Positions 1-32,080 of a DNA stretch of 64,000 bases are shown one piece after another. This stretch comes from the human T2T-CHM13v2.0 reference genome, Homo sapiens, in contig CP086569.2 of NCBI GenBank assembly GCA_009914755.4, positions 28,000,001 to 28,064,000 of the forward strand, written 5' to 3'. The notes beneath the pieces were generated by a model. It saw only the letters and a program-made list of their open reading frames with translations, ran no database searches and was not told where the DNA came from. The position numbers and the translations under genes are program-made. Within the stretch, counting starts at the first letter, position 1. Every line of letters begins with the position of its first letter.

Positions 1-440
1 CTCGAATATCATGAAACGGAATGGAATGAATTGGAACGGAATGGACTCGAATGGAATGGAATGTCATGGAATGGCATCAAATGGAATGGCATCAAATGGA
101 ATGGAATCGAATGCAATGGAATGCTATGGAATGGAATGGAATGCATTGGAATGGAATGTCCTCTAATGGAATGGATTCGAGTGGAATGGAATCGAATATA
201 ATGGAGTCGAATGAAATGGAATTGAAAGGAATGGGATCGAATACAATGGAATATACTGGAATGTAACGCAATGAACTCGAATGTAATTGACTGGAATTGA
301 ATGTACATGAATGGAATGTAATCGAATGGAAAGTAATCCAATGGAATAGAATCTAATGCAATAAAATCGACTCAGATAGAGTAGAATGTAATGGAATGGA
401 GTGCAGTGCAATGGAATGGAATGGAATGGAATGCAATGGA

Positions 441-520
441 ATGGAATGGAATGGGATGGAATGGTATGGAATGGAATGGAATGGAATGGAATGGGATGGA
501 ATGGTATGGAATGGATAGTA
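441..520 (+). repeat. 40-bp (8-pentamer) tandem duplication that defines the 3574-bp HOR variant. This is the representative copy; the same duplication is present in units 1 and 3-8.
   Basis: The sequence 'atggaatggaatgggatggaatggtatggaatgg...' occurs twice in succession. Units 2 and 9-19 have a single copy, which accounts exactly for the 3574 versus 3534 length difference. Confidence 0.85.
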
Positions 521-721
521 ATGGACTGGAATGAAGTGGACAGGAAAGGAATGGACTCAAATTGAAAGGGCTCGAAAGGAATGGAGTCAAATGGAATGGT
601 CTGGAATGGAATGAACACGAATGTAATGCAATCCAATAGAATGGAATCGAATGGCATGGAATATAAAGAAATGGAATCGAAGAGAATGGAAACAAACGGA
701 ATGGAATTGAATGGAATGGAA

Positions 722-875
722 TTGAATGGAATGGGAACGAATGGAGTAAAATTGTATGCAGTAGAAGAGAATAGAATGGAATGCAAGCGAAAGGAAAGGA
801 ATGGATTGGAATGGAATGGAATTCATTGGAATGGAAGGGAATGTAGTGTAATGGACAGGCCTGGAATAAAGTGGA
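722..875 (+). other. 154-bp segment flanked by sequences matching, from my memory, the widely used DYZ1 Y-specific PCR primers. It is present in every full-length unit.
   Basis: 'ttgaatggaatgggaacgaatgg' lies at 722-744. 'ggacaggcctggaataaagtgga', the reverse complement of TCCACTTTATTCCAGGCCTGTCC, lies at 853-875. The span is 154 bp. The primer sequences are recalled, not looked up. Confidence 0.6.
858..861. other. GGCC (HaeIII) site, one per full-length HOR unit. This is the representative copy.
   Basis: The site lies in the context 'atggacaggcctggaataaag'. By offset arithmetic it falls at 858, 4402, 7961, 11535, 15109, 18683, 22257, 25831, 29364, 32898, 36431, 41809, 45343, 48872, 52406, 55940, 59474 and 63008. 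There is none in truncated unit 12. I saw no other GGCC in the window by eye. Confidence 0.8.
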
Positions 876-3574
876 ATGCTACGGTCTCGAATGGAATAAA
901 AATGTATGGAATGGAATGCAATGAAACGGAATCGAATGTCATAGAATGTAATGGAATGCAAAAAAATGGACTCCGAAATCATTGACTGGAAAGGCTGGGT
1001 GTCGAAAGGAATTGACTCCAATGGAATGGAATCGAATGGAATGGAAGTGAATAGAATCGAACTAAATCGAATGGAATGGAATTGATAGGAACGGAATGGA
1101 AAGGAATGAAATGATTTGGCATGGAATGGAATCGAATGGCATCGAATGGAATGGAATGGAATGCAATGCAATGGAATGTATTAGAATGTAATGAACTTTA
1201 ATGGAATGTACTCGAATGGATTCGACTGGAATGGAATGTTCTGGAAGTGAATGGACTCCAATGGAATGGATTGAAAAGGAATGGAATCGTACGGAATGGA
1301 ATCTAATGGAATGGAATTAAATGGAAATGAATCAAATTGAATAGCACGGAATTGAATTGAATGGAATCGAATGCAATGGAATCTAATGAAACGGAAAGGA
1401 AAGGAATGGAATGGAATGGAATGGGCTGGAATGGAAAGGAATCGAAACGAATGGAATGGAATCGAACTGAAGAGACTGGAATGGAATGCACTGGAATGGA
1501 AGGGAGTGTAATGGAAGGTTCTCGAAAAAAATGGAATCGAATGGAATGGAATTGAATGGAACGGAATAGAGTCGAATGGAATTGAATGGAATGGAATGGA
1601 CTAGAGTGAAATGGAATCGAACCACAAGGAATGGACAGGAATAGAATGGTCTCGAATTGAATGGAATCGTATGGAATGGCATCAAACGGAATGGAATGGA
1701 CAGCCACGGAATGGAATGCACTCGAATGCAATGGAGTCGAAACTAATGGACTGGAATAGAATGGACTCGACTGGTACGGACTCCAATGGAATGGAATCGA
1801 ATGGAAGGGAATCGAACGGAATGGACTCGAAGGGAAAAGACTGCAATGGAAAGGTCTCGAATGGAATGGAAATTAATGGAATGGAATGGAATCGAATGAA
1901 ATGGAGTCAAAAGGAATGGAATCGAATGGCAAGAAATCGAATGTAATGGAATCGCAAGGAATTGATGTGAACGGAACGGAATGGAATGGAATCCAAAGAA
2001 ATGGAATAGAATGGAATGGAATCGAATGGAAAGAACTCGAATGGAAATCACTCGAATAGAATGCAATTTAATAAAATAGGATGAAATGTAATGGAATGGA
2101 ATGGAAAGGAATCGAAACGAAAGGAATGGAGACAGATGGAATGGAATGGAACAGAGAGCAATGGTATAGAATGGAATGGAATCATCTGGAATGGAATTGA
2201 ATGGAATGGAATAATATGAAATGGAATGGAATGGAATGGAATGCCCTTGAATTAAATGGACTGGAATGGAATGGACTCGAACAGAGTGGAATGGAAAGTG
2301 TTGAGATAGAATGGAATGGACTCCTTTGGAATGGTCTAGTATGCAATGCAATGGACTGGCAGGGAATCAAAAGGAATGTAATCGAATGGATTGGACTGGA
2401 ATGCAATGGACTCGAATAGATTGGAAACGGAATGCAAAGGAATGGAATGGAATAGTATGGAATGGAATGGAAAGGAATGGAGTGGAATAGACTAGAGTGG
2501 AATGGAATGGACTCGAAAGCAATGGACTGGAATGGAACTTTCTTGAATGGACTGGAATCAAACGGAATGGAATGCAATGCAATCAAATGGCATGGAATAA
2601 AATAGAATGAAAGAGAATCAAATGGAATTGAATCGAATGGAATCGAATGGATTGGAAAGGAATAGAATGGAATGGAATGGAATTGACTCAAATGGAATGG
2701 ACTAGAATGGAATGGATTCGAATGGAAGGCAAAGGAATGGAATCTATTGGAATGGACTGCAATGGAATGGAATGGAAGGGATTGGAATGGACTCGAATGG
2801 AATAGACTGCAATAGAAAGGATTCGAATGGAATGAAAAAGAATTGAATGGAATAGAACAGAATGGAATCAAATCGAATGAAATGGAATGGAATAGAAAGG
2901 AATGGAATGAAATGGAATGGAAAGGATTCGAATGGAATGCAATCGAATGGAATGGAATCGAACGGAATGGAATAAAATGGAAGCAAACTGGCAAGAAATG
3001 GAATCGAAATGAATGGAGTGTTATGGAACGGACTCCAAAGGAATTGAATGTAATAGAATGGAGTGGAGTGGACTCGAATATAATGGACTGCAATGGAATG
3101 AAATCACATGGAATGGGAACGAATGGAATGGAATGGAAAGGAATGGAATCGAATGGAAAGGAATCGAATGGAAGGGAATGAAATTGAATCAACAGGAATG
3201 GAAGGGAATAGAATAGACGGTAATGGAATGGACTCGAATAGAATGGACACGAATGCTCAAATTGAATGGACTCGAATGGAATGGAAACGAAAGGAATGTC
3301 ATCGAATGGAATTGAATCGATTGGAATAAAATCGCATAGAATAGAGTGGAATCAAATGGAATTGAATCGAAAGGAAAGGAAGCGAATGGACTGAAATGAA
3401 ATGGAATGGAATTGAATGGAAAGTAAAGCAATGGAATAGAATGGAACAAAATTTCACGGAATGGAATCAAACTGAATGGAATCAAATCAATGGAATCTAA
3501 TCAAATGGAATGGAAAGGAATTGAATGGAGTAGATGGGATTGGATGGGATTGGAATGAAATGTACTGGAAAGGA

Positions 3575-6500
3575 CTCGAATTTCATGAAACGGAATGGAA
3601 TGAATTGGAACGGAATGGACTCGAATGGAATGGAATGTCATGGAATGGCATCAAATGGAATGGCATCAAATGGAATGGAATCGAATGCAATGGAATGCTA
3701 TGGAATGGAATGGAATGCATTGGAATGGAATGTCCTCTAATGGAATGGATTCGAGTGGAATGGAATCGAATATAATGGAGTCGAATGAAATGGAATTGAA
3801 AGGAATGGGATCGAATACAATGGAATATACTGGAATGTAATGTAATGAACTCGAATGTAATTGACTGGAATGGAATGTACATGAATGGAATGTAATCGAA
3901 TGGAAAGTAATCCAATGGAATAGAATTTAATGCAATAAAATCGACTCAGATAGAGTAGAATGTAATGGAATGGAGTGCAGTGCAATGGAATGGAATGGAA
4001 TGGAATGGAATGGAATGGAATGGAATGGAATGGAATGGGATGGAATGGTATGGAATGGATAGTAATGGACTGGAGTGAAATGGACTGGAAAGGAATAGAC
4101 TCAAATTGAAAGGGCTCGAAAGGAATGGAGTCAAATGGAATGGTCTGGAATGGAATGAACACGAATGTAATGCAATCCAATAGAATGGAATCGAATGGCA
4201 TGGAATATAAAGAAATGGAATCGAAGAGAATGGAAACAAACGGAATGGAATTGAATGGAATGGAATTGAATGGAATGGGAACGAATGGAGTGAAATTGTA
4301 TGCAGTAGAAGAGAATAGAATGCAATGCAAGCGAAAGGAAAGGAATGGATTGGAATGGAATGGAATTCATTGGAATGGAAGGGAATGTAGTGTAATGGAC
4401 AGGCCTGGAATAAAGTGGAATGCTACGGTCTCGAATGGAATAAAAATGTATGGAATGGAATGCAATGAAACGGAATCGAATGTCATAGAATGTAATGGAA
4501 TGCAAAAAAATGGACTCCAAAATCATTGACTGGAAAGGCTGGGTGTCGAAAGGAATTGACTCCAATGGAATGGAATCGAATGGAATGGAAGTGAATAGAA
4601 TCGAACTAAATCGAATGGAATGGAATTGATAGGAACGGAATGGAAAGGAATGAAATGATTTGGCATGGAATGGAATCGAATGGCATCGAATGGAATGGAA
4701 TGGAATGCAATGCAATGGAATGTATTAGAATGTAATGAACTTTAATGGAATGTACTCGAATGGATTCGACTGGAATGGAATGTTCTGGAAGTGAATGGAC
4801 TCCAATGGAATGGATTGAAAAGGAATGGAATCGTACGGAATGGAATCTAATGGAATGGAATTAAATGGAAATGAATCAAATTGAACAGCACGGAATTGAA
4901 TTGAATGGAATCGAATGCAATGGAATCTAATGAAACGGAAAGTAAAGGAATGGAATGGAATGGAATGGGCTGGAATGGAAAGGAATCGAAAGGAATGGAA
5001 TGGAATCGAACTGAGGAGACTGGAATGGAATGCACTTCAACGGAAGGGAGTGTAATGGAAGGTTCTCGAAAAAAATGGAAACGAATGCAATGGAATTGAA
5101 TGGAACGGTATAGAGTCGAATGGAATTGAATGGAATGGAATGGACTAGAGTGAAATGGAATCGAACCACAAGGAATGGACAGGAATAGAATGGTCTCGAA
5201 TTGAATGGAATCGTATGGAATGGCATCAAACGGAATGGAATGGACAGCCACGGAATGGAATGCACTCGAATGCAATGGAGTCGAAACTAATGGACTGGAA
5301 TAGAATGGACTCGACTGGTATGGACTCCAATGGAATGGAATCGAATGGAAGGGAATCGAACGGAATGGACTCGAAGGGAAAAGACTGCAATGGAAAGGTC
5401 TCGAATGGAATGGAAATTAATGGAATGGAATGGAATCGAATGAAATGGAGTCAAAAGGAATGGAATTGAATGGCAAGAAATCGAATGTAATGGAATCACA
5501 AGGAATTGATGTGAACGGAATGGAATGGAATGGAATCCAAAGGAATGGAATAGAATGGAATGGAATCGAATGGAAAGGACTCGAATGGAAATCACTCGAA
5601 TAGAATGCAATTTAATAAAATAGGATGAAATGTAATGGAATGGAATGGAAAGGAATCGAAACGAAAGGAATGGAGACAGATGGAATGGAATGGAACAGAG
5701 AGCAATGGTATAGAATGGAATGGAATCATCTGGAATGGAATTGAATGGAATGGAATAATATGAAATGGAATGGAATGGAATGGAATGCCCTTGAATTAAA
5801 TGGACTGGAATGGAATGGACTCGAACAGAGTGGAATGGAAAGTGTTGAGATAGAATGGAATGGACTCCTTTGGAATGGTCTAGTATGCAATGCAATGGAC
5901 TGGCAGGGAATCAAAAGGAATGTAATCGAATGGATTGGACTGGAATGCAATGGACTCGAATAGATTGGAAACGGAATGCAAAGGAATGGAATGGAATAGT
6001 ATGGAATGGAATGGAAAGGAATGGAGTGGAATAGACTAGAGTGGAATGGAATGGACTGGAAAGCAATGGACTGGAATGGAACTTTCTTGAATGGACTGGA
6101 ATCAAACGGAATGGAATGCAATGCAATCAAATGGCATGGAATAAAATAGAATGAAAGAGAATCAAATGGAATTGAATCGAATGGAATCGAATGGATTGGA
6201 AAGGAATAGAATGGAATGGAATGGAATTGACTCAAATGGAATGGACTAGAATGGAATGGATTCGAATGGAAGGCAAAGGAATGGAATCTATCGGAATGGA
6301 CAGCAATGGAATGGAAAGGAAGGGATTGGAATGGACTCGAATGGAATGGACTGCAATAGAAAGGATTCGAATGGAATGAAAAAGAATTGAATGGAATAGA
6401 ACAGAATGGAATCAAATCGAATGAAATGGAATGGAATAGAAAGGAATGGAATGAAATGGAATGGAAAGGATTCGAATGGAATGGAATCGAACGGAATGGA

Positions 6501-7103
6501 ATAAAATGGAAGCAAACTGGCAAGAAATGGAATCGAAATGAATGGAGTGTTATGGAACGGACTCAAAAGGAATTGAATGTAATAGAATGGAGTGGAGTGG
6601 ACTCGAATATAATGGACTGGAATGGAATGAAATCACATGGAATGGGAACGAATGGAATTGAATGGAAAGGAATGGAATCGAATGGAAAGGAATCGAATGG
6701 AAGGGAATGAAATTGAATCAACAGGAATGGAAGGGAATAGAATAGACGGTAATGGAATGGACTCGAATAGAATGGACACGAATGCTCAAATTGAATGGAC
6801 TCGAATGGAATGGAAACGAAAGGAATGTCATCGAATGGAATTGAATCGATTGGAATGAAATGGCATAGAATGGAGTGGAATCAAATGGAATTGAATCGAA
6901 AGGAAAGGAAGCGAATGGACTGAAATGAAATGGAATGGAATTGAATGGAAAGTAAAGCAATGGAATAGAATGGAACGAAATTTCACGGAATGGTATCAAA
7001 CTGAATGGAATCAAATCAATGGAATATAATCAAATGGAATGGAAAGGAATTGAATGGAGTAGATGGGATTGGATGGGATTGGAATGAAATGTACTGGAAA
7101 GGA
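3575..7103 (+). repeat. HOR unit 2, 3529 bp, an outlier short variant inside the 3574-bp block.
   Basis: It lacks the 40-bp duplication. It has a longer pure (ggaat)n run at about 3975-4030. It lacks 15 bp, 'aatgcaatcgaatgg', at about 6478 when compared with about 2935-2950 in unit 1. Confidence 0.9.
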
Positions 7104-10100
7104 CTCGAATTTCATGAAACGGAATGGAATGAATTGGAACGGAATGGACTCGAATGGAATGGAATGTCATGGAATGGCATCAAATGGAATGGCATCAAAT
7201 GGAATGGAATCGAATGCAATGGAATGCTATGGAATGGAATGGAATGCATTGGAATGGAATGTCCTCTAATGGAATGGATTCGAGTGGAATGGAATCGAAT
7301 ATAATGGAGTCGAATGAAATGGAATTGAAAGGAATGGGATCGAATACAATGGAATATACTGGAATGTAACGTAATGAACTCGAATGTAATTGACTGGAAT
7401 GGAATGTACATGAATGGAATGTAATCAAATGGAAAGTAATCCAATGGAATAGAATCTAATGCAATAAAATCGACTCAGATAGAGTAGAATGTAATGGAAT
7501 GGAGTGCAGTGCAATGGAATGGAATGGAATGGAATGCAATGGAATGGAATGGAATGGGATGGAATGGTATGGAATGGAATGGAATGGAATGGAATGGGAT
7601 GGAATGGTATGGAATGGATAGTAATGGATTGGAATGAAGTGGACAGGAAAGGAATGGACTCAAATTGAAAGGGCTCGAAAGGAATGGAGTCAAATGGAAT
7701 GGTCTGGAATGGAATGAACACGAATGTAATGCAATCCAATAGAATGGAATCGAATGGCATGGAATATAAAGAAATGGAATCGAAGAGAATGGAAACAAAC
7801 GGAATGGAATTGAATGGAATGGAATTGAATGGAATGGGAACGAATGGAGTGAAATTGTATGCAGTAGAAGAGAATAGAATGGAATGCAAGCGAAAGGAAA
7901 GGAATGGATTGGAATGGAATGGAATTCATTGGAATGGAAGGGAATGTAGTGTAATGGACAGGCCTGGAATAAAGTGGAATGCTACGGTCTCGAATGGAAT
8001 AAAAATGTATGGAATGGAATGCAATGAAACGGAATCGAATGTCATAGAATGTAATGGAATGCAAAAAAATGGACTCCGAAATCATTGACTGGAAAGGCTG
8101 GGTGTCGAAAGGAATTGACTCCAATGGAATGGAATCGAATGGAATGGAAGTGAATAGAATCGAACTAAATCGAATGGAATGGAATTGATAGGAACGGAAT
8201 GGAAAGGAATGAAATGATTTGGCATGGAATGGAATCGAATGGCATCGAATGGAATGGAATGGAATGCAATGCAATGGAATGTATTAGAATGTAATGAACT
8301 TTAATGGAATGTACTCGAATGGATTCGACTGGAATGGAATGTTCTGGAAGTGAATGGACTCCAATGGAATGGATTGAAAAGGAATGGAATCGTACGGAAT
8401 GGAATCTAATGGAATGGAATTAAATGGAAATGAATGAAATTGAATAGCACGGAATTGAATTGAATGGAATCGAATGCAATGGAATCTAATGAAACGGAAA
8501 GAAAAGGAATGGAATGGAATGGAATGGGCTGGAATGGAAAGGAATCGAAACGAATGGAATGGAATCGAACTGAGGAGACTGGAATGGAATGCACTTCAAC
8601 GGAAGGGAGTGTAATGGAAGGTTCTCGAAAAAAATGGAAACGAATGGAATGGAATTGAATGGAACGGAATAGAGTCGAATGGAATTGAATGGAATGGAAT
8701 GGACTAGAGTGAAATGGAATCGAACCACAAGGAATGGACAGGAATAGAATGGTCTCGAATTGAATGGAATCGTATGGAATGGCATCAAACGGAATGGAAT
8801 GGACAGCCACGGAATGGAATGCACTCGAATGCAATGGAGTCGAAACTAATGGACTGGAATAGAATGGACTCGACTGGTACGGACTCCAATGGAATGGAAT
8901 CGAATGGAAGGGAATCGAACGCAATGGACTCGAAGGGAAAAGACTGCAATGGAAAGGTCTCGAATGGAATGGAAATTAATGGAATGGAATGGAATCGAAT
9001 GAAATGGAGTCAAAAGGAATGGAATTGAATGGCAAGAAATCGAATGTAATGGAATCACAAGGAATTGATGTGAACGGAACGGAATGGAATGGAATCCAAA
9101 GGAATGGAATAGAATGGAATGGAATCGAATGGAAAGGACTCGAATGGAAATCACTCGAATAGAATGCAATTTAATAAAATAGGATGAAATGTAATGGAAT
9201 GGAATGGAAAGGAATCGAAACGAAAGGAATGGAGACAGATGGAATGGAATGGAACAGAGAGCAATGGTATAGAATGGAATGGAATCATCTGGAATGGAAT
9301 TGAATGGAATGGAATAATATGAAATGGAATGGAATGGAATGGAATGCCCTTGAATTAAATGGACTGGAATGGAATGGACTCGAACAGAGTGGAATGGAAA
9401 GTGTTGAGATAGAATGGAATGGACTCCTTTGGAATGGTCTAGTATGCAATGCAATGGACTGGCAGGGAATCAAAAGGAATGTAATCGAATGGATTGGACT
9501 GGAATGCAATGGACTCGAATAGATTGGAAACGGAATGCAAAGGAATGGAATGGAATAGTATGGAATGGAATGGAAAGGAATGGAGTGGAATAGACTAGAG
9601 TGGAATGGAATGGACTCGAAAGCAATGGACTGGAATGGAACTTTCTTGAATGGACTGGAATCAAACGGAATGGAATGCAATGCAATCAAATGGCATGGAA
9701 TAAAATAGAATGAAAGAGAATCAAATGGAATTGAATCGAATGGAATCGAATGGATTGGAAAGGAATAGAATGGAATGGAATGGAATTGACTCAAATGGAA
9801 TGGACTAGAATGGAATGGATTCGAATGGAAGGCAAAGGAATGGAATCTATTGGAATGGACAGCAATGGAATGGAAAGGAAGGGATTGGAATGGACTCGAA
9901 TGGAATGGACTGCAATAGAAACGATTCGAATGGAATGAAAAAGAATTGAATGGAATAGAACAGAATGGAATCAAATCGAATGAAATGGAATGGAATAGAA
10001 AGGAATGGAATGAAATGGAATGGAAAGGATTCGAATGGAATGCAATCGAATGGAATGGAATCGAACGGAATGGAATAAAATGGAAGAAAACTGGCAAGAA

Positions 10101-10677
10101 ATGGAATCGAAATGAATGGAGTGTTATGGAACGGACTCCAAAGGAATTGAATGTAATAGAATGGAGTGGAGTGGACTCGAATATAATGGACTGGAATGGA
10201 ATGAAATCACATGGAATGGGAACGAATGGAATGGAATGGAAAGGAATGGAATCGAATGGAAAGGAATCGAATGGAAGGGAATGAAATTGAATCAACAGGA
10301 ATGGAAGGGAATAGAATAGACGGTAATGGAATGGACTCGAATAGAATGGACACGAATGCTCAAATTGAATGGACTCGAATGGAATGGAAACGAAAGGAAT
10401 GTCATCGAATGGAATTGAATCGATTGGAATGAAATGGCATAGAATGGAGTGGAATCAAATGGAATTGAATCGAAAGGAAAGGAAGCGAATGGACTGAAAT
10501 GAAATGGAATGGAATTGAATGGAAAGGAAAGCAATGGAATAGAATGGAACGAAATTTCACGGAATGGAATCAAACTGAATGGAATCAAATCAATGGAATA
10601 TAATCAAATGGAATGGAAAGGAATTGAATGGAGTAGATGGGATTGGATGGGATTGGAATGAAATGTACTGGAAAGGA
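7104..10677 (+). repeat. HOR unit 3, 3574 bp (long variant).
   Basis: Landmark spacing is 3574 bp. The 40-bp duplication lies at about 7545-7625. Confidence 0.9.
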
Positions 10678-13600
10678 CTCGAATTTCATGAAACGGAATG
10701 GAATGAATTGGAACGGAATGGACTCGAATGGAATGGAATGTCATGGAATGGCATCAAATGGAATGGCATCAAATGGAATGGAATCGAATGCAATGGAATG
10801 CTATGGAATGGAATGGAATGCATTGGAATGGAATGTCCTCTAATGGAATGGATTCGAGTGGAATGGAATCGAATATAATGGAGTCGAATGAAATGGAATT
10901 GAAAGGAATGGGATCGAATACAATGGAATATACTGGAATGTAATGTAATGAAGTCGAATGTAATTGACTGGAATGGAATGTACATGAATGGAATGTAATC
11001 AAATGGAAAGTAATCCAATGGAATAGAATCTAATGCAATAAAATCGACTCAGATAGAGTAGAATGTAATGGAATGGAGTGCAGTGCAATGGAATGGAATG
11101 GAATGGAATGCAATGGAATGGAATGGAATGGGATGGAATGGTATGGAATGGAATGGAATGGAATGGAATGGGATGGAATGGTATGGAATGGATAGTAATG
11201 GATTGGAATGAAGTGGACAGGAAAGGAATGGACTCAAATTGAAAGGGCTCGAAAGGAATGGAGTCAAATGGAATGGTCTGGAATGGAATGAACACGAATG
11301 TAATGCAATCCAATAGAATGGAATCGAATGGCATGGAATATAAAGAAATGGAATCGAAGAGAATGGAAACAAACGGAATGGAATTGATTGGAATGGAATT
11401 GAATGGAATGGGAACGAATGGAGTGAAATTGTATGCAGTAGAAGAGAATAGAATGGAATGCAAGCGAAAGGAAAGGAATGGATTGGAATGGAATGGAATT
11501 CATTGGAATGGAAGGGAATGTAGTGTAATGGACAGGCCTGGAATAAAGTGGAATGCTACGGTCTCGAATGGAATAAAAATGTATGGAATGGAATGCAATG
11601 AAACGGAATCGAATGTCATAGAATGTAATGGAATGCAAAAAAATGGACTCCGAAATCATTGACTGGAAAGGCTGGGTGTCGAAAGGAATTGACTCCAATG
11701 GAATGGAATCGAATGGAATGGAAGTGAATAGAATCGAACTAAATCGAATGGAATGGAATTGATAGGAACTGAATGGAAAGGAATGAAATGATTTGGCATG
11801 GAATGGAATCGAATGGCATCGAATGGAATGGAATGGAATGCAATGCAATGGAATGTATTAGAATGTAATGAACTTTAATGGAATGTACTCGAATGGATTC
11901 GACTGGAATGGAATGTTCTGGAAGTGAATGGACTCCAATGGAATGGATTGAAAAGGAATGGAATCGTACGGAATGGAATCTAATGGAATGGAATTAAATG
12001 GAAATGAATGAAATTGAATAGCACGGAATTGAATTGAATGGAATCGAATGCAATGGAATCTAATGAAACGGAAAGAAAAGGAATGGAATGGAATGGAATG
12101 GGCTGGAATGGAAAGGAATCGAAACGAATGGAATGGAATCGAACTGAGGAGACTGGAATGGAATGCACTTCAACGGAAGGGAGTGTAATGGAAGGTTCTC
12201 GAAAAAAATGGAAACGAATGGAATGGAATTGAATGGAACGGAATAGAGTCGAATGGAATTGAATGGAATGGAATAGACTAGAGTGAAATGGAATCGAACC
12301 ACAAGGAATGGACAGGAATAGAATGGTCTCGAATTGAATGGAATCGTATGGAATGGCATCAAACGGAATGGAATGGACAGCCACGGAATGGAATGCACTC
12401 GAATGCAATGGAGTCGAAACTAATGGACTGGAATAGAATGGACTCGACTGGTACGGACTCCAATGGAATGGAATCGAATGGAAGGGAATCGAACGCAATG
12501 GACTCGAAGGGAAAAGACTGCAATGGAAAGGTCTCGAATGGAATGGAAATTAATGGAATGGAATGGAATCGAATGAAATGGAGTCAAAAGGAATGGAATT
12601 GAATGGCAAGAAATCGAATGTAATGGAATCACAAGGAATTGATGTGAACGGAACGGAATGGAATGGAATCCAAAGGAATGGAATAGAATGGAATGGAATC
12701 GAATGGAAAGGACTCGAATGGAAATCACTCGAATAGAATGCAATTTAATAAAATAGGATGAAATGTAATGGAATGGAATGGAAAGGAATCGAAACGAAAG
12801 GAATGGAGACAGATGGAATGGAATGGAACAGAGAGCAATGGTATAGAATGGAATGGAATCATCTGGAATGGAATTGAATGGAATGGAATAATATGAAATG
12901 GAATGGAATGGAATGGAATGCCCTTGAATTAAATGGACTGGAATGGAATGGACTCGAACAGAGTGGAATGGAAAGTGTTGAGATAGAATGGAATGGACTC
13001 CTTTGGAATGGTCTAGTATGCAATGCAATGGACTGGCAGGGAATCAAAAGGAATGTAATCGAATGGATTGGACTGGAATGCAATGGACTCGAATAGATTG
13101 GAAACGGAATGCAAAGGAATGGAATGGAATAGTATGGAATGGAATGGAAAGGAATGGAGTGGAATAGACTAGAGTGGAATGGAATGGACTCGAAAGCAAT
13201 GGACTGGAATGGAACTTTCTTGAATGGACTGGAATCAAACGGAATGGAATGCAATGCAATCAAATGGCATGGAATAAAATAGAATGAAAGAGAATCAAAT
13301 GGAATTGAATCGAATGGAATCGAATGGATTGGAAAGGAATAGAATGGAATGGAATGGAATTGACTCAAATGGAATGGACTAGAATGGAATGGATTCGAAT
13401 GGAAGGCAAAGGAATGGAATCTATTGGAATGGACAGCAATGGAATGGAAAGGAAGGGATTGGAATGGACTCGAATGGAATGGACTGCAATAGAAAGGATT
13501 CGAATGGAATGAAAAAGAATTGAATGGAATAGAACAGAATGGAATCAAATCGAATGAAATGGAATGGAATAGAAAGGAATGGAATGAAATGGAATGGAAA

Positions 13601-14251
13601 GGATTCGAATGGAATGCAATCGAATGGAATGGAATCAAACGGAATGGAATAAAATGGAAGCAAACTGGCAAGAAATGGAATCGAAATGAATGGAGTGTTA
13701 TGGAACGGACTCAAAAGGAATTGAATGTAATAGAATGGAGTGGAGTGGACTCGAATATAATGGACTGGAATGGAATGAAATCACATGGAATGGGAACGAA
13801 TGGAATGGAATGGAAAGGAATGGAATCGAATGGAAAGGAATCGAATGGAAGGGAATGAAATTGAATCAACAGGAATGGAAGGGAATAGAATAGACGGTAA
13901 AGGAATGGACTCGAATAGAATGGACACGAATGCTCAAATTGAATGGACTCGAATGGAATGGAAACGAAAGGAATGTCATCGAATGGAATTGAATCGATTG
14001 GAATGAAATCGCATAGAATGGAGTGGAATCAAATGGAATTGAATCGAAAGGAAAGGAAGCGAATGGACTGAAATGAAATGGAATGGAATTGAATGGAAAG
14101 TAAAGCAATGGAATAGAATGGAACGAAATTTCACGGAATGGTATCAAACTGAATGGAATCAAATCAATGGAATATAATCAAATGGAATGGAAAGGAATTG
14201 AATGGAGTAGATGGGATTGGATGGGATTGGAATGAAATGTACTGGAAAGGA
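10678..14251 (+). repeat. HOR unit 4, 3574 bp (long variant).
   Basis: Landmark spacing is 3574 bp. It is near-identical to units 3 and 5. Confidence 0.9.
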
Positions 14252-17200
14252 CTCGAATTTCATGAAACGGAATGGAATGAATTGGAACGGAATGGACTCG
14301 AATGGAATGGAATGTCATGGAATGGCATCAAATGGAATGGCATCAAATGGAATGGAATCGAATGCAATGGAATGCTATGGAATGGAATGGAATGCATTGG
14401 AATGGAATGTCCTCTAATGGAATGGATTCGAGTGGAATGGAATCGAATATAATGGAGTCGAATGAAATGGAATTGAAAGGAATGGGATCGAATACAATGG
14501 AATATACTGGAATGTAACGTAATGAAGTCGAATGTAATTGACTGGAATGGAATGTACATGAATGGAATGTAATCAAATGGAAAGTAATCCAATGGAATAG
14601 AATCTAATGCAATAAAATCGACTCAGATAGAGTAGAATGTAATGGAATGGAGTGCAGTGCAATGGAATGGAATGGAATGGAATGCAATGGAATGGAATGG
14701 AATGGGATGGAATGGTATGGAATGGAATGGAATGGAATGGAATGGGATGGAATGGTATGGAATGGATAGTAATGGATTGGAATGAAGTGGACAGGAAAGG
14801 AATGGACTCAAATTGAAAGGGCTCGAAAGGAATGGAGTCAAATGGAATGGTCTGGAATGGAATGAACACGAATGTAATGCAATCCAATAGAATGGAATCG
14901 AATGGCATGGAATATAAAGAAATGGAATCGAAGAGAATGGAAACAAACGGAATGGAATTGAATGGAATGGAATTGAATGGAATGGGAACGAATGGAGTGA
15001 AATTGTATGCAGTAGAAGAGAATAGAATGGAATGCAAGCGAAAGGAAAGGAATGGATTGGAATGGAATGGAATTCATTGGAATGGAAGGGAATGTAGTGT
15101 AATGGACAGGCCTGGAATAAAGTGGAATGCTACGGTCTCGAATGGAATAAAAATGTATGGAATGGAATGCAATGAAACGGAATCGAATGTCATAGAATGT
15201 AATGGAATGCAAAAAAATGGACTCCGAAATCATTGACTGGAAAGGCTGGGTGTCGAAAGGAATTGACTCCAATGGAATGGAATCGAATGGAATGGAAGTG
15301 AATAGAATCGAACTAAATCGAATGGAATGGAATTGATAGGAACTGAATGGAAAGGAATGAAATGATTTGGCATGGAATGGAATCGAATGGCATCGAATGG
15401 AATGGAATGGAATGCAATGCAATGGAATGTATTAGAATGTAATGAACTTTAATGGAATGTACTCGAATGGATTCGACTGGAATGGAATGTTCTGGAAGTG
15501 AATGGACTCCAATGGAATGGATTGAAAAGGAATGGAATCGTACGGAATGGAATCTAATGGAATGGAATTAAATGGAAATGAATGAAATTGAATAGCACGG
15601 AATTGAATTGAATGGAATCGAATGCAATGGAATCTAATGAAACGGAAAGAAAAGGAATGGAATGGAATGGAATGGGCTGGAATGGAAAGGAATCGAAACG
15701 AATGGAATGGAATCGAACTGAGGAGACTGGAATGGAATGCACTTCAACGGAAGGGAGTGTAATGGAAGGTTCTCGAAAAAAATGGAAACGAATGGAATGG
15801 AATTGAATGGAACGGAATAGAGTCGAATGGAATTGAATGGAATGGAATGGACTAGAGTGAAATGGAATCGAACCACAAGGAATGGACAGGAATAGAATGG
15901 TCTCGAATTGAATGGAATCGTATGGAATGGCATCAAACGGAATGGAATGGACAGCCACGGAATGGAATGCACTCGAATGCAATGGAGTCGAAACTAATGG
16001 ACTGGAATAGAATGGACTCGACTGGTACGGACTCCAATGGAATGGAATCGAATGGAAGGGAATCGAACGCAATGGACTCGAAGGGAAAAGACTGCAATGG
16101 AAAGGTCTCGAATGGAATGGAAATTAATGGAATGGAATGGAATCGAATGAAATGGAGTCAAAAGGAATGGAATTGAATGGCAAGAAATCGAATGTAATGG
16201 AATCACAAGGAATTGATGTGAACGGAACGGAATGGAATGGAATCCAAAGGAATGGAATAGAATGGAATGGAATCGAATGGAAAGGACTCGAATGGAAATC
16301 ACTCGAATAGAATGCAATTTAATAAAATAGGATGAAATGTAATGGAATGGAATGGAAAGGAATCGAAACGAAAGGAATGGAGACAGATGGAATGGAATGG
16401 AACAGAGAGCAATGGTATAGAATGGAATGGAATCATCTGGAATGGAATTGAATGGAATGGAATAATATGAAATGGAATGGAATGGAATGGAATGCCCTTG
16501 AATTAAATGGACTGGAATGGAATGGACTCGAACAGAGTGGAATGGAAAGTGTTGAGATAGAATGGAATGGACTCCTTTGGAATGGTCTAGTATGCAATGC
16601 AATGGACTGGCAGGGAATCAAAAGGAATGTAATCGAATGGATTGGACTGGAATGCAATGGACTCGAATAGATTGGAAACGGAATGCAAAGGAATGGAATG
16701 GAATAGTATGGAATGGAATGGAAAGGAATGGAGTGGAATAGACTAGAGTGGAATGGAATGGACTCGAAAGCAATGGACTGGAATGGAACTTTCTTGAATG
16801 GACTGGAATCAAACGGAATGGAATGCAATGCAATCAAATGGCATGGAATAAAATAGAATGAAAGAGAATCAAATGGAATTGAATCGAATGGAATCGAATG
16901 GATTGGAAAGGAATAGAATGGAATGGAATGGAATTGACTCAAATGGAATGGACTAGAATGGAATGGATTCGAATGGAAGGCAAAGGAATGGAATCTATTG
17001 GAATGGACAGCAATGGAATGGAAAGGAAGGGATTGGAATGGACTCGAATGGAATGGACTGCAATAGAAAGGATTCGAATGGAATGAAAAAGAATTGAATG
17101 GAATAGAACAGAATGGAATCAAATCGAATGAAATGGAATGGAATAGAAAGGAATGGAATGAAATGGAATGGAAAGGATTCGAATGGAATGCAATCGAATG

Positions 17201-17825
17201 GAATGGAATCGAACGGAATGGAATAAAATGGAAGCAAACTGGCAAGAAATGGAATCGAAATGAATGGAGTGTTATGGAACGGACTCCAAAGGAATTGAAT
17301 GTAATAGAATGGAGTGGAGTGGACTCGAATATAATGGACTGGAATGGAATGAAATCACATGGAATGGGAACGAATGGAATGGAATGGAAAGGAATGGAAT
17401 CGAATGGAAAGGAATCGAATGGAAGGGAATGAAATTGAATCAACAGGAATGGAAGGGAATAGAATAGACGGTAATGGAATGGACTCGAATAGAATGGACA
17501 CGAATGCTCAAATTGAATGGACTCGAATGGAATGGAAACGAAAGGAATGTCATCGAATGGAATTGAATCGATTGGAATGAAATGGCATAGAATGGAGTGG
17601 AATCAAATGGAATTGAATCGAAAGGAAAGGAAGCGAATGGACTGAAATGAAATGGAATGGAATTGAATGGAAAGGAAAGCAATGGAATAGAATGGAACGA
17701 AATTTCACGGAATGGAATCAAACTGAATGGAATCAAATCAATGGAATATAATCAAATGGAATGGAAAGGAATTGATTGGAGTAGATGGGATTGGATGGGA
17801 TTGGAATGAAATGTACTGGAAAGGA
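14252..17825 (+). repeat. HOR unit 5, 3574 bp (long variant).
   Basis: Landmark spacing is 3574 bp. Confidence 0.9.
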
Positions 17826-20800
17826 CTCGAATTTCATGAAACGGAATGGAATGAATTGGAACGGAATGGACTCGAATGGAATGGAATGTCATGGAATGGC
17901 ATCAAATGGAATGGCATCAAATGGAATGGAATCGAATGCAATGGAATGCTATGGAATGGAATGGAATGCATTGGAATGGAATGTCCTCTAATGGAATGGA
18001 TTCGAGTGGAATGGAATCGAATATAATGGAGTCGAATGAAATGGAATTGAAAGGAAAGGGATCGAATACAATGGAATATACTGGAATGTAATGTAATGAA
18101 CTCGAATGTAATTGACTGGAATGGAATGTACATAAATGGAATGTAATCAAATGGAAAGTAATCCAATGGAATAGAATCTAATGCAATAAAATCGACTCAG
18201 ATAGAGTAGAATGTAATGGAATGGAGTGCAGTGCAATGGAATGGAATGGAATGGAATGCAATGGAATGGAATGGAATGGGATGGAATTGTATGGAATGGA
18301 ATGGAATGGAATGGAATGGGATGGAATGGTATGGAATGGATAGAAATGGACTGGAGTGAAATGGACTGGAAAGGAATGGACTCAAATTGAAAGGGCTCGA
18401 AAGGAATGGAGTCAAATGGAATGGTCTGGAATGGAATGAACACGAATGTAATGCAATCCAATAGAATGGAATCGAATGGCATGGAATATAAAGAAATGGA
18501 ATCGAAGAGAATGGAAACAAACGGAATGGAATTGAATGGAATGGAATTGAATGGAATGGGAACGAATGGAGTGAAATTGTATGCAGTAGAAGAGAATACA
18601 ATGGAATGCAAGCGAAAGGAAAGGAATGGATTGGAATGGAATGGAATTCATTGGAATGGAAGGGAATGTAGTGTAATGGACAGGCCTGGAATAAAGTGGA
18701 ATGCTACGGTCTCGAATGGAATAAAAATGTATGGAATGGAATGCAATGAAACGGAATCGAATGTCATAGAATGTAATGGAATGCAAAAAAATGGACTCCG
18801 AAATCATTGACTGGAAAGGCTGGGTGTCGAAAGGAATTGACTCCAATGGAATGGAATCGAATGGAATGGAAGTGAATAGAATCGAACTAAATCGAATGGA
18901 ATGGAATTGATAGGAACTGAATGGAAAGGAATGAAATGATTTGGCATGGAATGGAATCGAATGGCATCGAATGGAATGGAATGGAATGCAATGCAATGGA
19001 ATGTATTAGAATGTAATGAACTTTAATGGAATGTACTCGAATGGATTCGACTGGAATGGAATGTTCTGGAAGTGAATGGACTCCAATGGAATGGATTGAA
19101 AAGGAATGGAATCGTACGGAATGGAATCTAATGGAATGGAATTAAATGGAAATGAATCAAATTGAATAGCACGGAATTGAATTGAATGGAATCGAATGCA
19201 ATGGAATCTAATGAAACGGAAAGAAAAGGAATGGAATGGAATGGAATGGGCTGGAATGGAAAGGAATCGAAACGAATGGAATGGAATCGAACTGAGGAGA
19301 CTGGAATGGAATGCACTTCAACGGAAGGGAGTGTAATGGAAGGTTCTCGAAAAAAATGGAAACGAATGGAATGGAATTGAATGGAACGGAATAGAGTCGA
19401 ATGGAATTGAATGGAATGGAATGGACTAGAGTGAAATGGAATCGAACCACAAGGAATGGACAGGAATAGAATGGTCTCGAATTGAATGGAATCGTATGGA
19501 ATGGCATCAAACGGAATGGAATGGACAGCCACGGAATGGAATGCACTCGAATGCAATGGAGTCGAAACTAATGGACTGGAATAGAATGGACTCGACTGGT
19601 ACGGACTCCAATGGAATGGAATCGAATGGAAGGGAATCGAACGCAATGGACTCGAAGGGAAAAGACTGCAATGGAAAGGTCTCGAATGGAATGGAAATTA
19701 ATGGAATGGAATGGAATCGAATGAAATGGAGTCAAAAGGAATGGAATTGAATGGCAAGAAATCGAATGTAATGGAATCACAAGGAATTGATGTGAACGGA
19801 ACGGAATGGAATGGAATCCAAAGGAATGGAATAGAATGGAATGGAATCGAATGGAAAGGACTCGAATGGAAATCACTCGAATAGAATGCAATTTAATAAA
19901 ATAGGATGAAATGTAATGGAATGGAATGGAAAGGAATCGAAACGAAAGGAATGGAGACAGATGGAATGGAATGGAACAGAGAGCAATGGTATAGAATGGA
20001 ATGGAATCATCTGGAATGGAATTGAATGGAATGGAATAATATGAAATGGAATGGAATGGAATGGAATGCCCTTGAATTAAATGGACTGGAATGGAATGGA
20101 CTCGAACAGAGTGGAATGGAAAGTGTTGAGATAGAATGGAATGGACTCCTTTGGAATGGTCTAGTATGCAATGCAATGGACTGGCAGGGAATCAAAAGGA
20201 ATGTAATCGAATGGATTGGACTGGAATGCAATGGACTCGAATAGATTGGAAACGGAATGCAAAGGAATGGAATGGAATAGTATGGAATGGAATGGAAAGG
20301 AATGGAGTGGAATAGACTAGAGTGGAATGGAATGGACTCGAAAGCAATGGACTGGAATGGAACTTTCTTGAATGGACTGGAATCAAACGGAATGGAATGC
20401 AATGCAATCAAATGGCATGGAATAAAATAGAATGAAAGAGAATCAAATGGAATTGAATCGAATGGAATCGAATGGATTGGAAAGGAATAGAATGGAATGG
20501 AATGGAATTGACTCAAATGGAATGGACTAGAATGGAATGGATTCGAATGGAAGGCAAAGGAATGGAATCTATTGGAATGGACAGCAATGGAATGGAAAGG
20601 AAGGGATTGGAATGGACTCGAATGGAATGGACTGCAATAGAAAGGATTCGAATGGAATGAAAAAGAATTGAATGGAATAGAACAGAATGGAATCAAATCG
20701 AATGAAATGGAATGGAATAGAAAGGAATGGAATGAAATGGAATGGAAAGGATTCGAATGGAATGCAATCGAATGGAATGGAATCGAACGGAATGGAATAA

Positions 20801-21399
20801 AATGGAAGCAAACTGGCAAGAAATGGAATCGAAATGAATGGAGTGTTATGGAACGGACTCCAAAGGAATTGAATGTAATAGAATGGAGTGGAGTGGACTC
20901 GAATATAATGGACTGGAATGGAATGAAATCACATGGAATGGGAACGAATGGAATGGAATGGAAAGGAATGGAATCGAATGGAAAGGAATCGAATGGAAGG
21001 GAATGAAATTGAATCAACAGGAATGGAAGGGAATAGAATAGACGGTAATGGAATGGACTCGAATAGAATGGACACGAATGCTCAAATTGAATGGACTCGA
21101 ATGGAATGGAAACGAAAGGAATGTCATCGAATGGAATTGAATCGATTGGAATGAAATGGCATAGAATGGAGTGGAATCAAATGGAATTGAATCGAAAGGA
21201 AAGGAAGCGAATGGACTGAAATGAAATGGAATGGAATTGAATGGAAAGGAAAGCAATGGAATAGAATGGAACGAAATTTCACGGAATGGAATCAAACTGA
21301 ATGGAATCAAATCAATGGAATATAATCAAATGGAATGGAAAGGAATTGATTGGAGTAGATGGGATTGGATGGGATTGGAATGAAATGTACTGGAAAGGA
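17826..21399 (+). repeat. HOR unit 6, 3574 bp (long variant, sub-block 6-8).
   Basis: Landmark spacing is 3574 bp. It shares private variants with units 7 and 8: 'cataaatgg', 'aaaggaaaggg', 'gaatacaatgg' and 'ggaattgtatgg'. Confidence 0.9.
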
Positions 21400-24300: not shown

Positions 24301-24973
24301 ATGGAATGAAATGGAATGGAAAGGATTCGAATGGAATGCAATCGAATGGAATGGAATCGAACGGAATGGAATAAAATGGAAGCAAACTGGCAAGAAATGG
24401 AATCGAAATGAATGGAGTGTTATGGAACGGACTCCAAAGGAATTGAATGTAATAGAATGGAGTGGAGTGGACTCGAATATAATGGACTGGAATGGAATGA
24501 AATCACATGGAATGGGAACGAATGGAATGGAATGGAAAGGAATGGAATCGAATGGAAAGGAATCGAATGGAAGGGAATGAAATTGAATCAACAGGAATGG
24601 AAGGGAATAGAATAGACGGTAATGGAATGGACTCGAATAGAATGGACACGAATGCTCAAATTGAATGGACTCGAATGGAATGGAAACGAAAGGAATGTCA
24701 TCGAATGGAATTGAATCGATTGGAATGAAATGGCATAGAATGGAGTGGAATCAAATGGAATTGAATCGAAAGGAAAGGAAGCGAATGGACTGAAATGAAA
24801 TGGAATGGAATTGAATGGAAAGGAAAGCAATGGAATAGAATGGAACGAAATTTCACGGAATGGAATCAAACTGAATGGAATCAAATCAATGGAATATAAT
24901 CAGATGGAATGGAAAGGAATTGATTGGAGTAGATGGGATTGGATGGGATTGGAATGAAATGTACTGGAAAGGA
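21400..24973 (+). repeat. HOR unit 7, 3574 bp (long variant, sub-block 6-8).
   Basis: Landmark spacing is 3574 bp. Confidence 0.9.
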
Positions 24974-27900: not shown

Positions 27901-28546
27901 CGAATGGAATGCAATCGAATGGAATGGAATCGAACGGAATGGAATAAAATGGAAGCAAACTGGCAAGAAATGGAATCGAAATGAATGGAGTGTTATGGAA
28001 CGGACTCCAAAGGAATTGAATGTAATAGAATGGAGTGGAGTGGACTCGAATATAATGGACTGGAATGGAATGAAATCACATGGAATGGGAACGAATGGAA
28101 TGGAATGGAAAGGAATGGAATCGAATGGAAAGGAATCGAATGGAAGGGAATGAAATTGAATCAACAGGAATGGAAGGGAATAGAATAGACGGTAATGGAA
28201 TGGACTCGAATAGAATGGACACGAATGCTCAAATTGAATGGACTCGAATGGAATGGAAACGAAAGGAATGTCATCGAATGGAATTGAATCGATTGGAATG
28301 AAATCGCATAGAATGGAGTGGAATCAAATGGAATTGAATCGAAAGGAAAGGAAGCGAATGGACTGAAATGAAATGGAATGGAATTGAATGGAAAGTAAAG
28401 CAATGGAATAGAATGGAACGAAATTTCACGGAATGGAATCAAACTGAATGGAATCAAATCAATGGAATATAATCAAATGGAATGGAAAGGAATTGAATGG
28501 AGTAGATGGGATTGGATGGGATTGGAATGAAATGTACTGGAAAGGA
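24974..28546 (+). repeat. HOR unit 8, 3573 bp (long variant with a 1-bp deletion).
   Basis: Landmark spacing is 3573 bp. It reads 'tttggaatgtctag' at about 27301-27310 where the other units read 'tttggaatggtctag'. It is the last unit carrying the 40-bp duplication. Confidence 0.9.
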
Positions 28547-31500: not shown

Positions 31501-32080
31501 GAAATGGAATCGAAATGAATGGAGTGTTATGGAACGGACTCCAAAGGAATTGAATGTAATAGAATGGAGTGGAGTGGACTCGAATATAATGGACTGGAAT
31601 GGAATGAAATCACATGGAATGGGAACGAATGGAATGGAATGGAAAGGAATGGAATCGAATGGAAAGGAATCGAATGGAAGGGAATGAAATTGAATCAACA
31701 GGAATGGAAGGGAATAGAATAGACGGTAATGGAATGGACTCGAATAGAATGGACACGAATGCTCAAATTGAATGGACTCGAATGGAATGGAAACGAAAGG
31801 AATGTCATCGAATGGAATGGAATCGATTGGAATGAAATCGCATAGAATGGAGTGGAATCAAATGGAATTGAATCGAAAGGAAAGGAAGCGAATGGACTGA
31901 AATGAAATGGAATGGAATTGAATGGAAAGTAAAGCAATGGAATAGAATGGAACGAAATTTCACGGAATGGAATCAAACTGAATGGAATCAAATCAATGGA
32001 ATATAATCAAATGGAATGGAAAGGAATTGAATGGAGTAGATGGGATTGGATGGGATTGGAATGAAATGTACTGGAAAGGA
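28547..32080 (+). repeat. HOR unit 9, 3534 bp (short variant, no 40-bp duplication).
   Basis: Landmark spacing is 3534 bp. There is a single copy of 'gggatggaatggtatggaatggatag' at about 28990-29030. Confidence 0.9.

What the first reader, a model, noticed from the sequence alone, without database searches (positions are those of the whole stretch)
722..875. Each unit carries one HaeIII site and a 154-bp interval flanked by recalled DYZ1 primer sequences
GGCC occurs once per full-length unit, in the context 'acaggcctgg'. HaeIII digestion would therefore give a ladder of 3529-3574-bp fragments: 3544, 3559, 3574 five times, 3533, 3534, 3533, one 5378-bp fragment spanning the truncated unit, and then 3534, 3529 and 3534 four times. 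Within each unit, 'ttgaatggaatgggaacgaatgg' and the reverse complement of 'tccactttattccaggcctgtcc' lie exactly 154 bp apart. I recall both that primer pair and that amplicon size as the standard Y-specific DYZ1 assay. This is the strongest single piece of evidence for the chromosomal assignment.
Basis: partly seen in the sequence, partly recalled or inferred. Interest (0 to 1): 0.55.

Follow-up and report, generated by a model that had tools for sequence, protein, structure and literature searches.

The report
Human Y satellite DYZ1 array

Summary
The window has 18 GGCC sites. The HaeIII fragments are exactly those listed: 3544, 3559, 3574 x5, 3533, 3534, 3533, 5378, 3534, 3529, 3534 x4. The reverse-primer site is exact in all 18 site-bearing units. 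The forward-primer site is exact in 17, with one T>G mismatch at 29229. All 17 exact pairs give 154 bp.

Evidence independent of the recalled primers shows the array is DYZ1 (HSat3A6, Yq12):
- 400 nt of the published Nakahori clone X06228 aligns to every unit at 97.5-98.2%.
- Eight other published DYZ1 primers map once per unit, in the published order.
- GC (38.8%) and CpG density (1 per 34.7 bp) equal published DYZ1 values.
- A published study ran the same virtual HaeIII digest on DYZ1.

A variable-gap search found the primer pair in 31 further public loci, which are human contamination; 31 of 33 spacings were 154 bp.

I could not verify the primers' attribution to a published assay: no paper in the held library prints them. 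I could not test Y-specificity, because no human genome was searchable.

The 5378-bp fragment comes from one 1690-bp deletion. The periodic sites follow from concerted evolution of a tandem array. Already known; low interest.

The parts
1..64000 (+). Uninterrupted DYZ1 (HSat3A6) satellite array, GGAAT-rich on the + strand. It holds 16 complete HaeIII units of 3529-3574 bp, one doubled fragment with an internal deletion, and two partial end units.
   Evidence: TRF finds a 5/10/15-bp base periodicity across 18-63996. The 16 full units are 98.7-100% identical pairwise. GC is 38.8% and CpG 1 per 34.7 bp, against 38% and 1 per 35 bp published for DYZ1.
722..875 (+).
   Evidence: In-silico PCR.
722..744 (+). 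Forward-primer site TTGAATGGAATGGGAACGAATGG.
   Evidence: Exact in 17 units, 1 mismatch in one unit, and 135 further sites at 3 mismatches.
853..875 (-). Reverse-primer site TCCACTTTATTCCAGGCCTGTCC. It covers the non-pentameric island that holds the HaeIII site.
   Evidence: Exact in 18 of 18 site-bearing units, with the next best site at 5 mismatches. Its complement is exact in the published Nakahori clone fragment.
858..861 (.). HaeIII site GGCC inside a StuI site AGGCCT, once per unit.
819..824 (.). EcoRI site GAATTC inside the amplicon, once per unit. Single-unit extra sites lie at 26962 and 37152.
29228..29250 (+). Forward-primer site with one mismatch (T>G at primer position 2, base 29229).
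36433..41810 (+). The 5378-bp HaeIII fragment. It equals two units minus one 1690-bp deletion (338 pentamers). The junction is at 39361/39362 with 8 bp of microhomology (AATGGAAT). The deletion removes one HaeIII site, one EcoRI site and both primer sites.
   Evidence: Alignment to a unit dimer gives blocks of 2929 bp (11 mismatches) and 2449 bp (8 mismatches) around a single 1690-bp gap. The junction can slide by 8 bp.
4404..25832 (+). Block of six long-form units (3559 bp, then 3574 x5), 99.2-99.9% identical to each other.
25833..63009 (+). Block of short-form units (3529-3534 bp). Most share a 40-bp deletion at alignment columns 3125-3164; one unit (u13) has a 30-bp plus a 15-bp deletion instead.
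48874..63009 (+). Very recent tandem duplication of a two-unit (7068-bp) block. The two copies differ at 2 of 7068 positions.
1234..1246 (+). Perfect trimeric heat-shock element GAAnnTTCnnGAA. There are three per unit, at +376, +656 and +1677 from GGCC.
   Evidence: The first falls on the GAATGTTCTGGAA at the end of the Fig. S4 sequence of PMC7889540, which I take to be that paper's putative HSF1 site.

Best explanation
The window is a 64-kb piece of one DYZ1 block from the heterochromatic long arm (Yq12) of a human Y chromosome. DYZ1 is the Y-specific subfamily of human satellite 3 (HSat3A6). It is a nested repeat: a diverged (GGAAT)n pentamer array organised into a higher-order unit of about 3.5-3.6 kb. 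The HaeIII site and the two primer sites each occur once in that unit. They recur with unit periodicity because the array is kept homogeneous by unequal exchange and tandem duplication (concerted evolution). That is why HaeIII gives the classical male-specific '3.4-kb' band and why a primer pair inside the unit gives a strong 154-bp product from thousands of templates.

Length variants arise by gain or loss of whole pentamers: 15-, 30- and 40-bp indels, and one 1690-bp deletion at an 8-bp microhomology. Neighbouring units form locally homogenised blocks.

Shown here: the sites, their phasing, unit identities, indels, the deletion junction, the two-unit duplication, the match to published DYZ1 sequence and primers, and the 154-bp spacing in independent copies. 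Inferred: the exchange mechanism, from the pattern and from the T2T-Y description; and the chromosomal location, from published statements that this subfamily is Y-specific.
For: Sites and fragments were reproduced. Units are 98.7-100% identical and differ by indels that are multiples of 5 bp. There is a single 1690-bp deletion with 8-bp microhomology and a two-unit duplication with 2 differences in 7068 bp.

The Nakahori X06228 fragment aligns at 97.5-98.2% to all 18 units. Eight published DYZ1 primers map once per unit, in order. GC 38.8% and CpG 1 per 34.7 bp match the 38% and 1 per 35 bp published for DYZ1.

The T2T-Y preprint describes DYZ1 as a Y-specific HSat3 subfamily of ~3.6-kb nested repeats derived from CATTC, with most units over 98% identical and evolving by unequal exchange. 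The 43-Y assembly preprint cut DYZ1 into units by virtual HaeIII digestion.

A search allowing spacings of 139-169 bp found the exact primer pair in 31 independent public loci. 31 of 33 spacings were 154 bp, and collapsed contigs imply periods of 3574, 3569, 3544 and 7138 bp. No Rfam family was found. Only sub-threshold low-complexity Pfam hits were found in the stop-free ORFs.
Against: No human genome assembly could be searched, so Y-specificity and the exact position in Yq12 rest on the literature. The modal HaeIII unit reported for 6 of 7 assembled Y chromosomes is 3,569 bp, and no unit of that length occurs in this window. This fits local length-variant blocks, since 3574 and 3544 bp also appear in independent contigs, but it was not compared with a reference. 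The primer pair's published provenance and product size were not verified.
Confidence: 0.96

Rival explanations
1. The array is a DYZ1-related repeat from the Yq11/Yq12 transition zone (the DYZ18, 3.1-kb or 2.7-kb repeats) rather than from the main DYZ1 blocks.
For: The 43-Y assembly preprint reports a 2.7-kb repeat in which 77% of the unit is 97% identical to DYZ1. Partial similarity to DYZ1 alone would therefore not exclude it.
Against: Units here are 3529-3574 bp, not 2.7 or 3.1 kb. All eight published DYZ1 primers, spread over the whole 3.56-kb unit, map once per unit at the published coordinates. Independent collapsed contigs give the same full-length periods.
Confidence: 0.02
2. The array is a DYZ1-like HSat3 array outside the Y chromosome, for example Yq12 heterochromatin translocated to an acrocentric short arm, or an autosomal HSat3 subfamily with a similar higher-order unit. 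It could also come from a non-human great ape.
For: [quoted passage not shown] No tool here can search a human or ape genome.
Against: The T2T-Y preprint describes the ~3.6-kb nested HSat3 repeat as a Y-specific subfamily. Identity to the Y-derived Nakahori clone is about 98%, inside the range reported among DYZ1 units on one Y chromosome. The primer pair is exact in 17 of 18 units.
Confidence: 0.02
3. The periodic GGCC sites and primer pairs are chance features or an assembly artefact, such as a collapsed or artificially tiled repeat.
For: The total GGCC count (18) equals the shuffle expectation of 19 +/- 4.3. The last two 7068-bp blocks are almost identical.
Against: Both primers have a shuffle expectation near zero. 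Units differ from one another by 0-1.3% plus distinct indels, in a structured block pattern, which artificial tiling would not give. The same features recur in 31 independent public loci.
Confidence: 0.005

Closest known systems
DYZ1 (HSat3A6), the 3.4/3.56-kb HaeIII/EcoRI repeat of human Yq12. The first sequenced unit is the 3564-bp clone of Nakahori et al. 1986 (GenBank X06228).
   Same: Pentamer-derived nested repeat with one HaeIII and one EcoRI site per unit. About 98% identity to the published clone fragment. Published primers map in order. Same GC and CpG density. Units over 98% identical to each other.
   Different: Unit lengths here are 3529-3574 bp, not the 3564 bp of the clone or the 3,569-bp mode reported in assembled Y chromosomes. 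These are ordinary length variants in multiples of 5 bp.
Other HSat3 arrays, such as DYZ17 near the Y centromere and the chromosome 9, 15 and acrocentric HSat3 arrays.
   Same: The same ancestral CATTC/GGAAT pentamer and the same kind of heat-shock elements as those discussed for SATIII.
   Different: The T2T-Y preprint describes the ~3.6-kb nested repeat as a Y-specific HSat3 subfamily. I did not compare other HSat3 arrays here, so whether they lack this higher-order unit, HaeIII site and primer island was not tested.
The 2.7-kb and 3.1-kb DYZ1/DYZ18-derived repeats at the Yq11/Yq12 boundary.
   Same: Partly derived from DYZ1: 77% of the 2.7-kb unit is 97% identical to DYZ1.
   Different: Different unit length. 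The window's units are full-length DYZ1.

Membership tests
DYZ1 (HSat3A6) of human Yq12 | Tandem higher-order unit of about 3.5-3.6 kb released by HaeIII, one site per unit. | tested here: met
   18 GGCC sites. 16 internal fragments of 3529-3574 bp, plus one of 5378 bp explained by a 1690-bp deletion.
DYZ1 (HSat3A6) of human Yq12 | The unit is built from diverged copies of the pentamer TTCCA/GGAAT. | tested here: met
   TRF finds a 5/10/15-bp periodicity over 18-63996. Rotations of GGAAT dominate the 5-mer counts, and apart from two 1-bp deletions all indels are multiples of 5 bp.
DYZ1 (HSat3A6) of human Yq12 | Sequence identity to the reference DYZ1 clone (Nakahori X06228). | tested here: met
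   The 400 nt of the clone printed in PMC7889540 Fig. S4 align to all 18 units at 97.5-98.2% (one single-base gap in one unit). Only about 11% of the unit could be compared, because the full clone is not held.
DYZ1 (HSat3A6) of human Yq12 | Published DYZ1 unit primers map once per unit at the published coordinates. | tested here: met
   Primers A-H of PMC3925983 Table 5: C, E and F are exact in 18 units and D in 15. A, B, G and H match with one error, constant across units for A, B and H; one D site and one G site carry 2. Order and strand are as published.
DYZ1 (HSat3A6) of human Yq12 | Base composition of about 38% GC and about 1 CpG per 35 bp. | tested here: met
   38.8% GC and 1 CpG per 34.7 bp, against published values.
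DYZ1 (HSat3A6) of human Yq12 | Male-specific: located on the Y chromosome, in blocks that alternate with DYZ2. | not testable with these tools
   No human assembly can be searched. The window contains no DYZ2 boundary, which fits DYZ1 blocks of 50 kb to 3.6 Mb.
Published Y-specific DYZ1 PCR assay (recalled as Kogan et al. 1987, primers Y1.1/Y1.2, 154 bp) | The two primer sequences and the product size are as published. | tested here: inconclusive
   Both sequences are present, 154 bp apart, in 17 units and in 31 independent loci. The reverse primer's complement is exact in the Nakahori clone fragment. No held paper prints the primers, and Kogan 1987 is not held. PMC3776702 confirms only that Kogan 1987 gives primers for the 3.4-kb DYZ1 repeat.

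The most novel reading that the evidence does not exclude
This stretch is not in the canonical Yq12 location. It would be a DYZ1 block carried elsewhere (for example a Yq12-to-acrocentric short-arm transfer), or a lineage-specific DYZ1 variant block. The variant would be marked by the absence of the modal 3,569-bp unit and by the 3574/3534-bp pair with a shared 40-bp deletion, which could serve as a Y-haplogroup marker.
Probability: 0.04. Interest if true: 0.3.

Novelty: already known. Interest (0 to 1): 0.08.

Why it matters
It matters little as a discovery. DYZ1, its HaeIII periodicity and its use for PCR sexing have been known since the 1970s and 1980s, and complete Yq12 sequences are now published. 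The check has three practical uses.

- It fixes the identity of the window, human Y heterochromatin, on evidence stronger than a recalled primer pair.
- It shows that the pair's specificity rests on the reverse primer, which sits on the one non-pentameric island of the unit.
- It shows that the same human sequence sits in records labelled as bacterial genomes and in metagenome assemblies. Anyone screening such data should keep this in mind.

Tried and rejected
Six of the ten literature searches were aimed at the primers or the assay: full primer strings, triplet-spaced forms, 13-17-mer fragments of both primers and their complements, and combinations of DYZ1, Kogan, Y1.1/Y1.2 and 154 bp. Three more combined DYZ1 with 154 bp, Kogan or primer names. 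None found a paper that prints the pair.

- The '154 bp' in PMC9187067 refers to an STS gene amplicon.
- The '154-bp' Y SATIII amplicon of PMC7889540 is a different interval, starting at the HaeIII site.
- Kogan 1987, Nakahori 1986 and the journal version of the T2T-Y paper are not held. Preprints were used instead.

An Rfam scan of the whole window found nothing. There are 109 stop-free ORFs of 120 aa or more. I rejected them as genes because (GGAAT)n has no stop codon in five of the six reading frames. Three representatives gave only sub-threshold low-complexity Pfam matches, to the Extensin-like and pentapeptide-repeat families.

I rejected enrichment of GGCC as an argument, because the count equals the shuffle expectation. 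I did not use the large protein-database searches, because there is no protein question here.

Full report
**1. Checking the observation**

GGCC occurs 18 times in the window, at 858, 4402, 7961, 11535, 15109, 18683, 22257, 25831, 29364, 32898, 36431, 41809, 45343, 48872, 52406, 55940, 59474 and 63008. There are no other sites.

An in-silico HaeIII digest gives internal fragments of 3544, 3559, 3574 x5, 3533, 3534, 3533, 5378, 3534, 3529 and 3534 x4. The end pieces are 859 and 991 bp. The context is ACAGGCCTGG in all 18 units, so each site is also a StuI site.

The total number of GGCC sites is what composition predicts: shuffles give 19 +/- 4.3. Only the phasing is non-random.

The complement of TCCACTTTATTCCAGGCCTGTCC is exact at all 18 sites, and nothing else in the window comes within 4 mismatches. 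TTGAATGGAATGGGAACGAATGG is exact 17 times. The ninth unit (29228-29250) has T>G at primer position 2.

All 17 exact pairs span 154 bp, in six sequence variants. Shuffles expect essentially no match to either primer.

The forward primer is close to generic satellite sequence, with 135 further sites at 3 mismatches. The specificity of the pair therefore comes from the reverse primer, which covers the one non-pentameric island of the unit.

**2. What the array is**

Tandem Repeats Finder sees one continuous array with a 5/10/15-bp base period from 18 to 63996. Cutting at HaeIII gives 16 complete units that are 98.7-100% identical pairwise (mean 99.2%). They differ in length only by indels of 15, 30 and 40 bp, plus two single-base deletions.

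The units fall into blocks:
- Six long-form units (3559 bp, then 3574 x5) at 4404-25832.
- Short-form units (3529-3534 bp) from 25833 onward. All but one share a 40-bp deletion; that unit (u13) has a 30-bp and a 15-bp deletion instead.
- The first complete unit (3544 bp) resembles the second block.

The 5378-bp fragment is two units minus a single 1690-bp deletion, equal to 338 pentamers. Its junction lies at 39361/39362 within 8 bp of microhomology (AATGGAAT). The deletion removes one HaeIII site, one EcoRI site and both primer sites.

The last four units are a tandem duplication of a two-unit, 7068-bp block. The two copies differ at 2 positions.

**3. Evidence from outside the window**

*(a) Published clone.* Supplementary Fig. 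S4 of PMC7889540 prints part of the Nakahori DYZ1 clone (GenBank X06228), beginning at the HaeIII site. The 400 nt held as text align to each of the 18 units at 97.5-98.2%, with one single-base gap in one unit. They contain the reverse primer's complement exactly.

*(b) Published primers.* PMC3925983 lists eight DYZ1 primers with their coordinates in the 3564-bp HaeIII unit. All eight map once per unit, on the expected strand and in the published order. The counts are:
- C, E and F are exact in 18 units, and D in 15.
- A, B, G and H match with one error, constant across units for A, B and H.
- One D site and one G site carry 2 errors.

*(c) Composition.* The window's GC content is 38.8% and its CpG density is 1 per 34.7 bp. 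The 43-Y assembly preprint gives 38% and 1 CpG per 35 bp for DYZ1.

*(d) Published descriptions.* That preprint used the same virtual HaeIII digest to split DYZ1 arrays into units, and found 3,569 bp to be the commonest length in 6 of 7 genomes. The T2T-Y preprint describes DYZ1 as a Y-specific HSat3 subfamily of ~3.6-kb nested repeats derived from CATTC. It reports that most units are over 98% identical and that the array is shaped by unequal exchange.

*(e) Independent copies.* I searched public bacterial-genome and metagenome collections for both primers with a variable gap that accepted products of 139-169 bp. This returned 5 contigs labelled as bacterial genomes and 26 metagenome loci.
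- 31 of 33 products are 154 bp. The two exceptions (153 and 152 bp) lie in two ~55-kb contigs whose HaeIII spacings are irregular, possibly from assembly indel errors; I did not test this.
- The loci align to a window unit at 79-98.7%.
- Contigs collapsed to about one unit have terminal overlaps that imply periods of 3574, 3569, 3544 and 7138 bp.
- These records are human contamination of the kind the T2T-Y preprint reports for HSat3 and HSat1B.

**4. What could not be confirmed**

None of the searches for the primer strings or fragments of them found a held paper that prints the pair. Keyword searches also failed. Kogan et al. 1987 and Nakahori et al. 1986 are not held.

PMC3776702 confirms only that Kogan 1987 provides PCR primers for part of the 3.4-kb DYZ1 repeat. 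The attribution and the 154-bp product size agree with my own recollection, but that is a lead, not a test.

The '154-bp' Y SATIII amplicon of PMC7889540 is a different interval. Y-specificity could not be tested, because no human assembly can be searched.

**5. How it works**

Each unit carries one copy of every unit-specific feature. Concerted evolution of the array keeps the units nearly identical, through unequal sister-chromatid exchange and tandem duplication. The window shows direct traces of this process: the near-identical two-unit duplication, the blocks of like neighbours, the pentamer-multiple indels and the microhomology deletion.

A single restriction site therefore gives a unit-length band, and an intra-unit primer pair amplifies from thousands of templates. 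The exchange mechanism is inferred from these patterns and from the published description. The patterns themselves are shown here.

**6. Rivals considered**

- The Yq11/Yq12 transition repeats have the wrong unit length.
- A non-Y or non-human HSat3 array cannot be excluded with these tools, but it conflicts with the published Y-specificity of this subfamily and with the ~98% identity to the Y clone.
- Chance or assembly artefact is excluded by the structured variation between units and by the independent copies.

No RNA family was found. The many stop-free ORFs are a by-product of the pentamer repeat.

**7. Verdict**

The feature is already known, and interest is low.

Noticed in passing
L001-L005 (BMRF01000076.1 Actinomadura cremea; CALPCJ010000043.1 Senimuribacter sp.; NZ_JBFAJD010000109.1 Streptomyces sp.; BNBB01000077.1 Streptosporangium violaceochromogenes; CAYVXY010000078.1 Polyangiaceae MAG) and L006-L031: Contigs filed as bacterial genomes, and 26 metagenome loci, carry the exact primer pair and align to a window unit at 79-98.7%. 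They are human Y-satellite contamination, as the T2T-Y preprint predicted for HSat3.
   Followed up: partly
L001, L005, L019, L024: Assemblies collapsed the tandem repeat into contigs about one unit long. Their terminal overlaps (63, 35, 127 and 48 bp) imply periods of 3574, 3569, 3544 and 7138 bp. The window's length variants therefore occur in other samples too.
   Followed up: partly
window 48874-55941 and 55942-63009: Two consecutive two-unit blocks of 7068 bp differ at only 2 positions (48936 and 50132), which points to a very recent tandem duplication.
   Followed up: yes
window 39361-39362 (within 36433-41810): A 1690-bp deletion (338 pentamers) between two adjacent units, at an 8-bp microhomology AATGGAAT. 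It leaves an 1844-bp truncated unit without HaeIII, EcoRI or primer sites.
   Followed up: yes
whole window: No unit has the 3,569-bp length reported as modal in 6 of 7 assembled Y chromosomes. The window has a 3559/3574-bp block followed by a 3529-3534-bp block marked by a 40-bp deletion at unit columns 3125-3164. I could not test whether this is position- or lineage-specific.
   Followed up: no
window 1234-1246, 1514-1526, 2535-2547 and the same phases in every unit: Three perfect trimeric heat-shock elements GAAnnTTCnnGAA per unit (54 in all), at +376, +656 and +1677 from GGCC. The first falls on the GAATGTTCTGGAA at the end of the Fig. S4 sequence of PMC7889540, which I take to be the putative HSF1 site that paper tested by ChIP on Yq12 SATIII.
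   Followed up: partly
window 26962 and 37152: Extra EcoRI sites in single units. An EcoRI digest would give 1170 + 2363 bp and 760 + 4618 bp there instead of unit-length fragments.
   Followed up: no
whole window, e.g. 581-985 (+) and 26716-28164 (-): 109 stop-free ORFs of 120-482 aa on both strands, because the pentamer repeat rarely creates stop codons. Three tested ORFs gave no hit or only sub-threshold Extensin-like and pentapeptide-repeat Pfam matches. A gene caller would produce spurious proteins here.
   Followed up: partly
L009, L010 and L016 (BNJT01001888.1 and BNJU01004413.1, ~55-kb contigs): Metagenome contigs carrying several DYZ1 units. Their HaeIII spacings are 3539, 3562, 3558 and 3553 bp, and two amplicons are 153 and 152 bp. 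These lengths are not multiples of 5 apart, which may reflect assembly indel errors rather than real variants; I did not test this.
   Followed up: no
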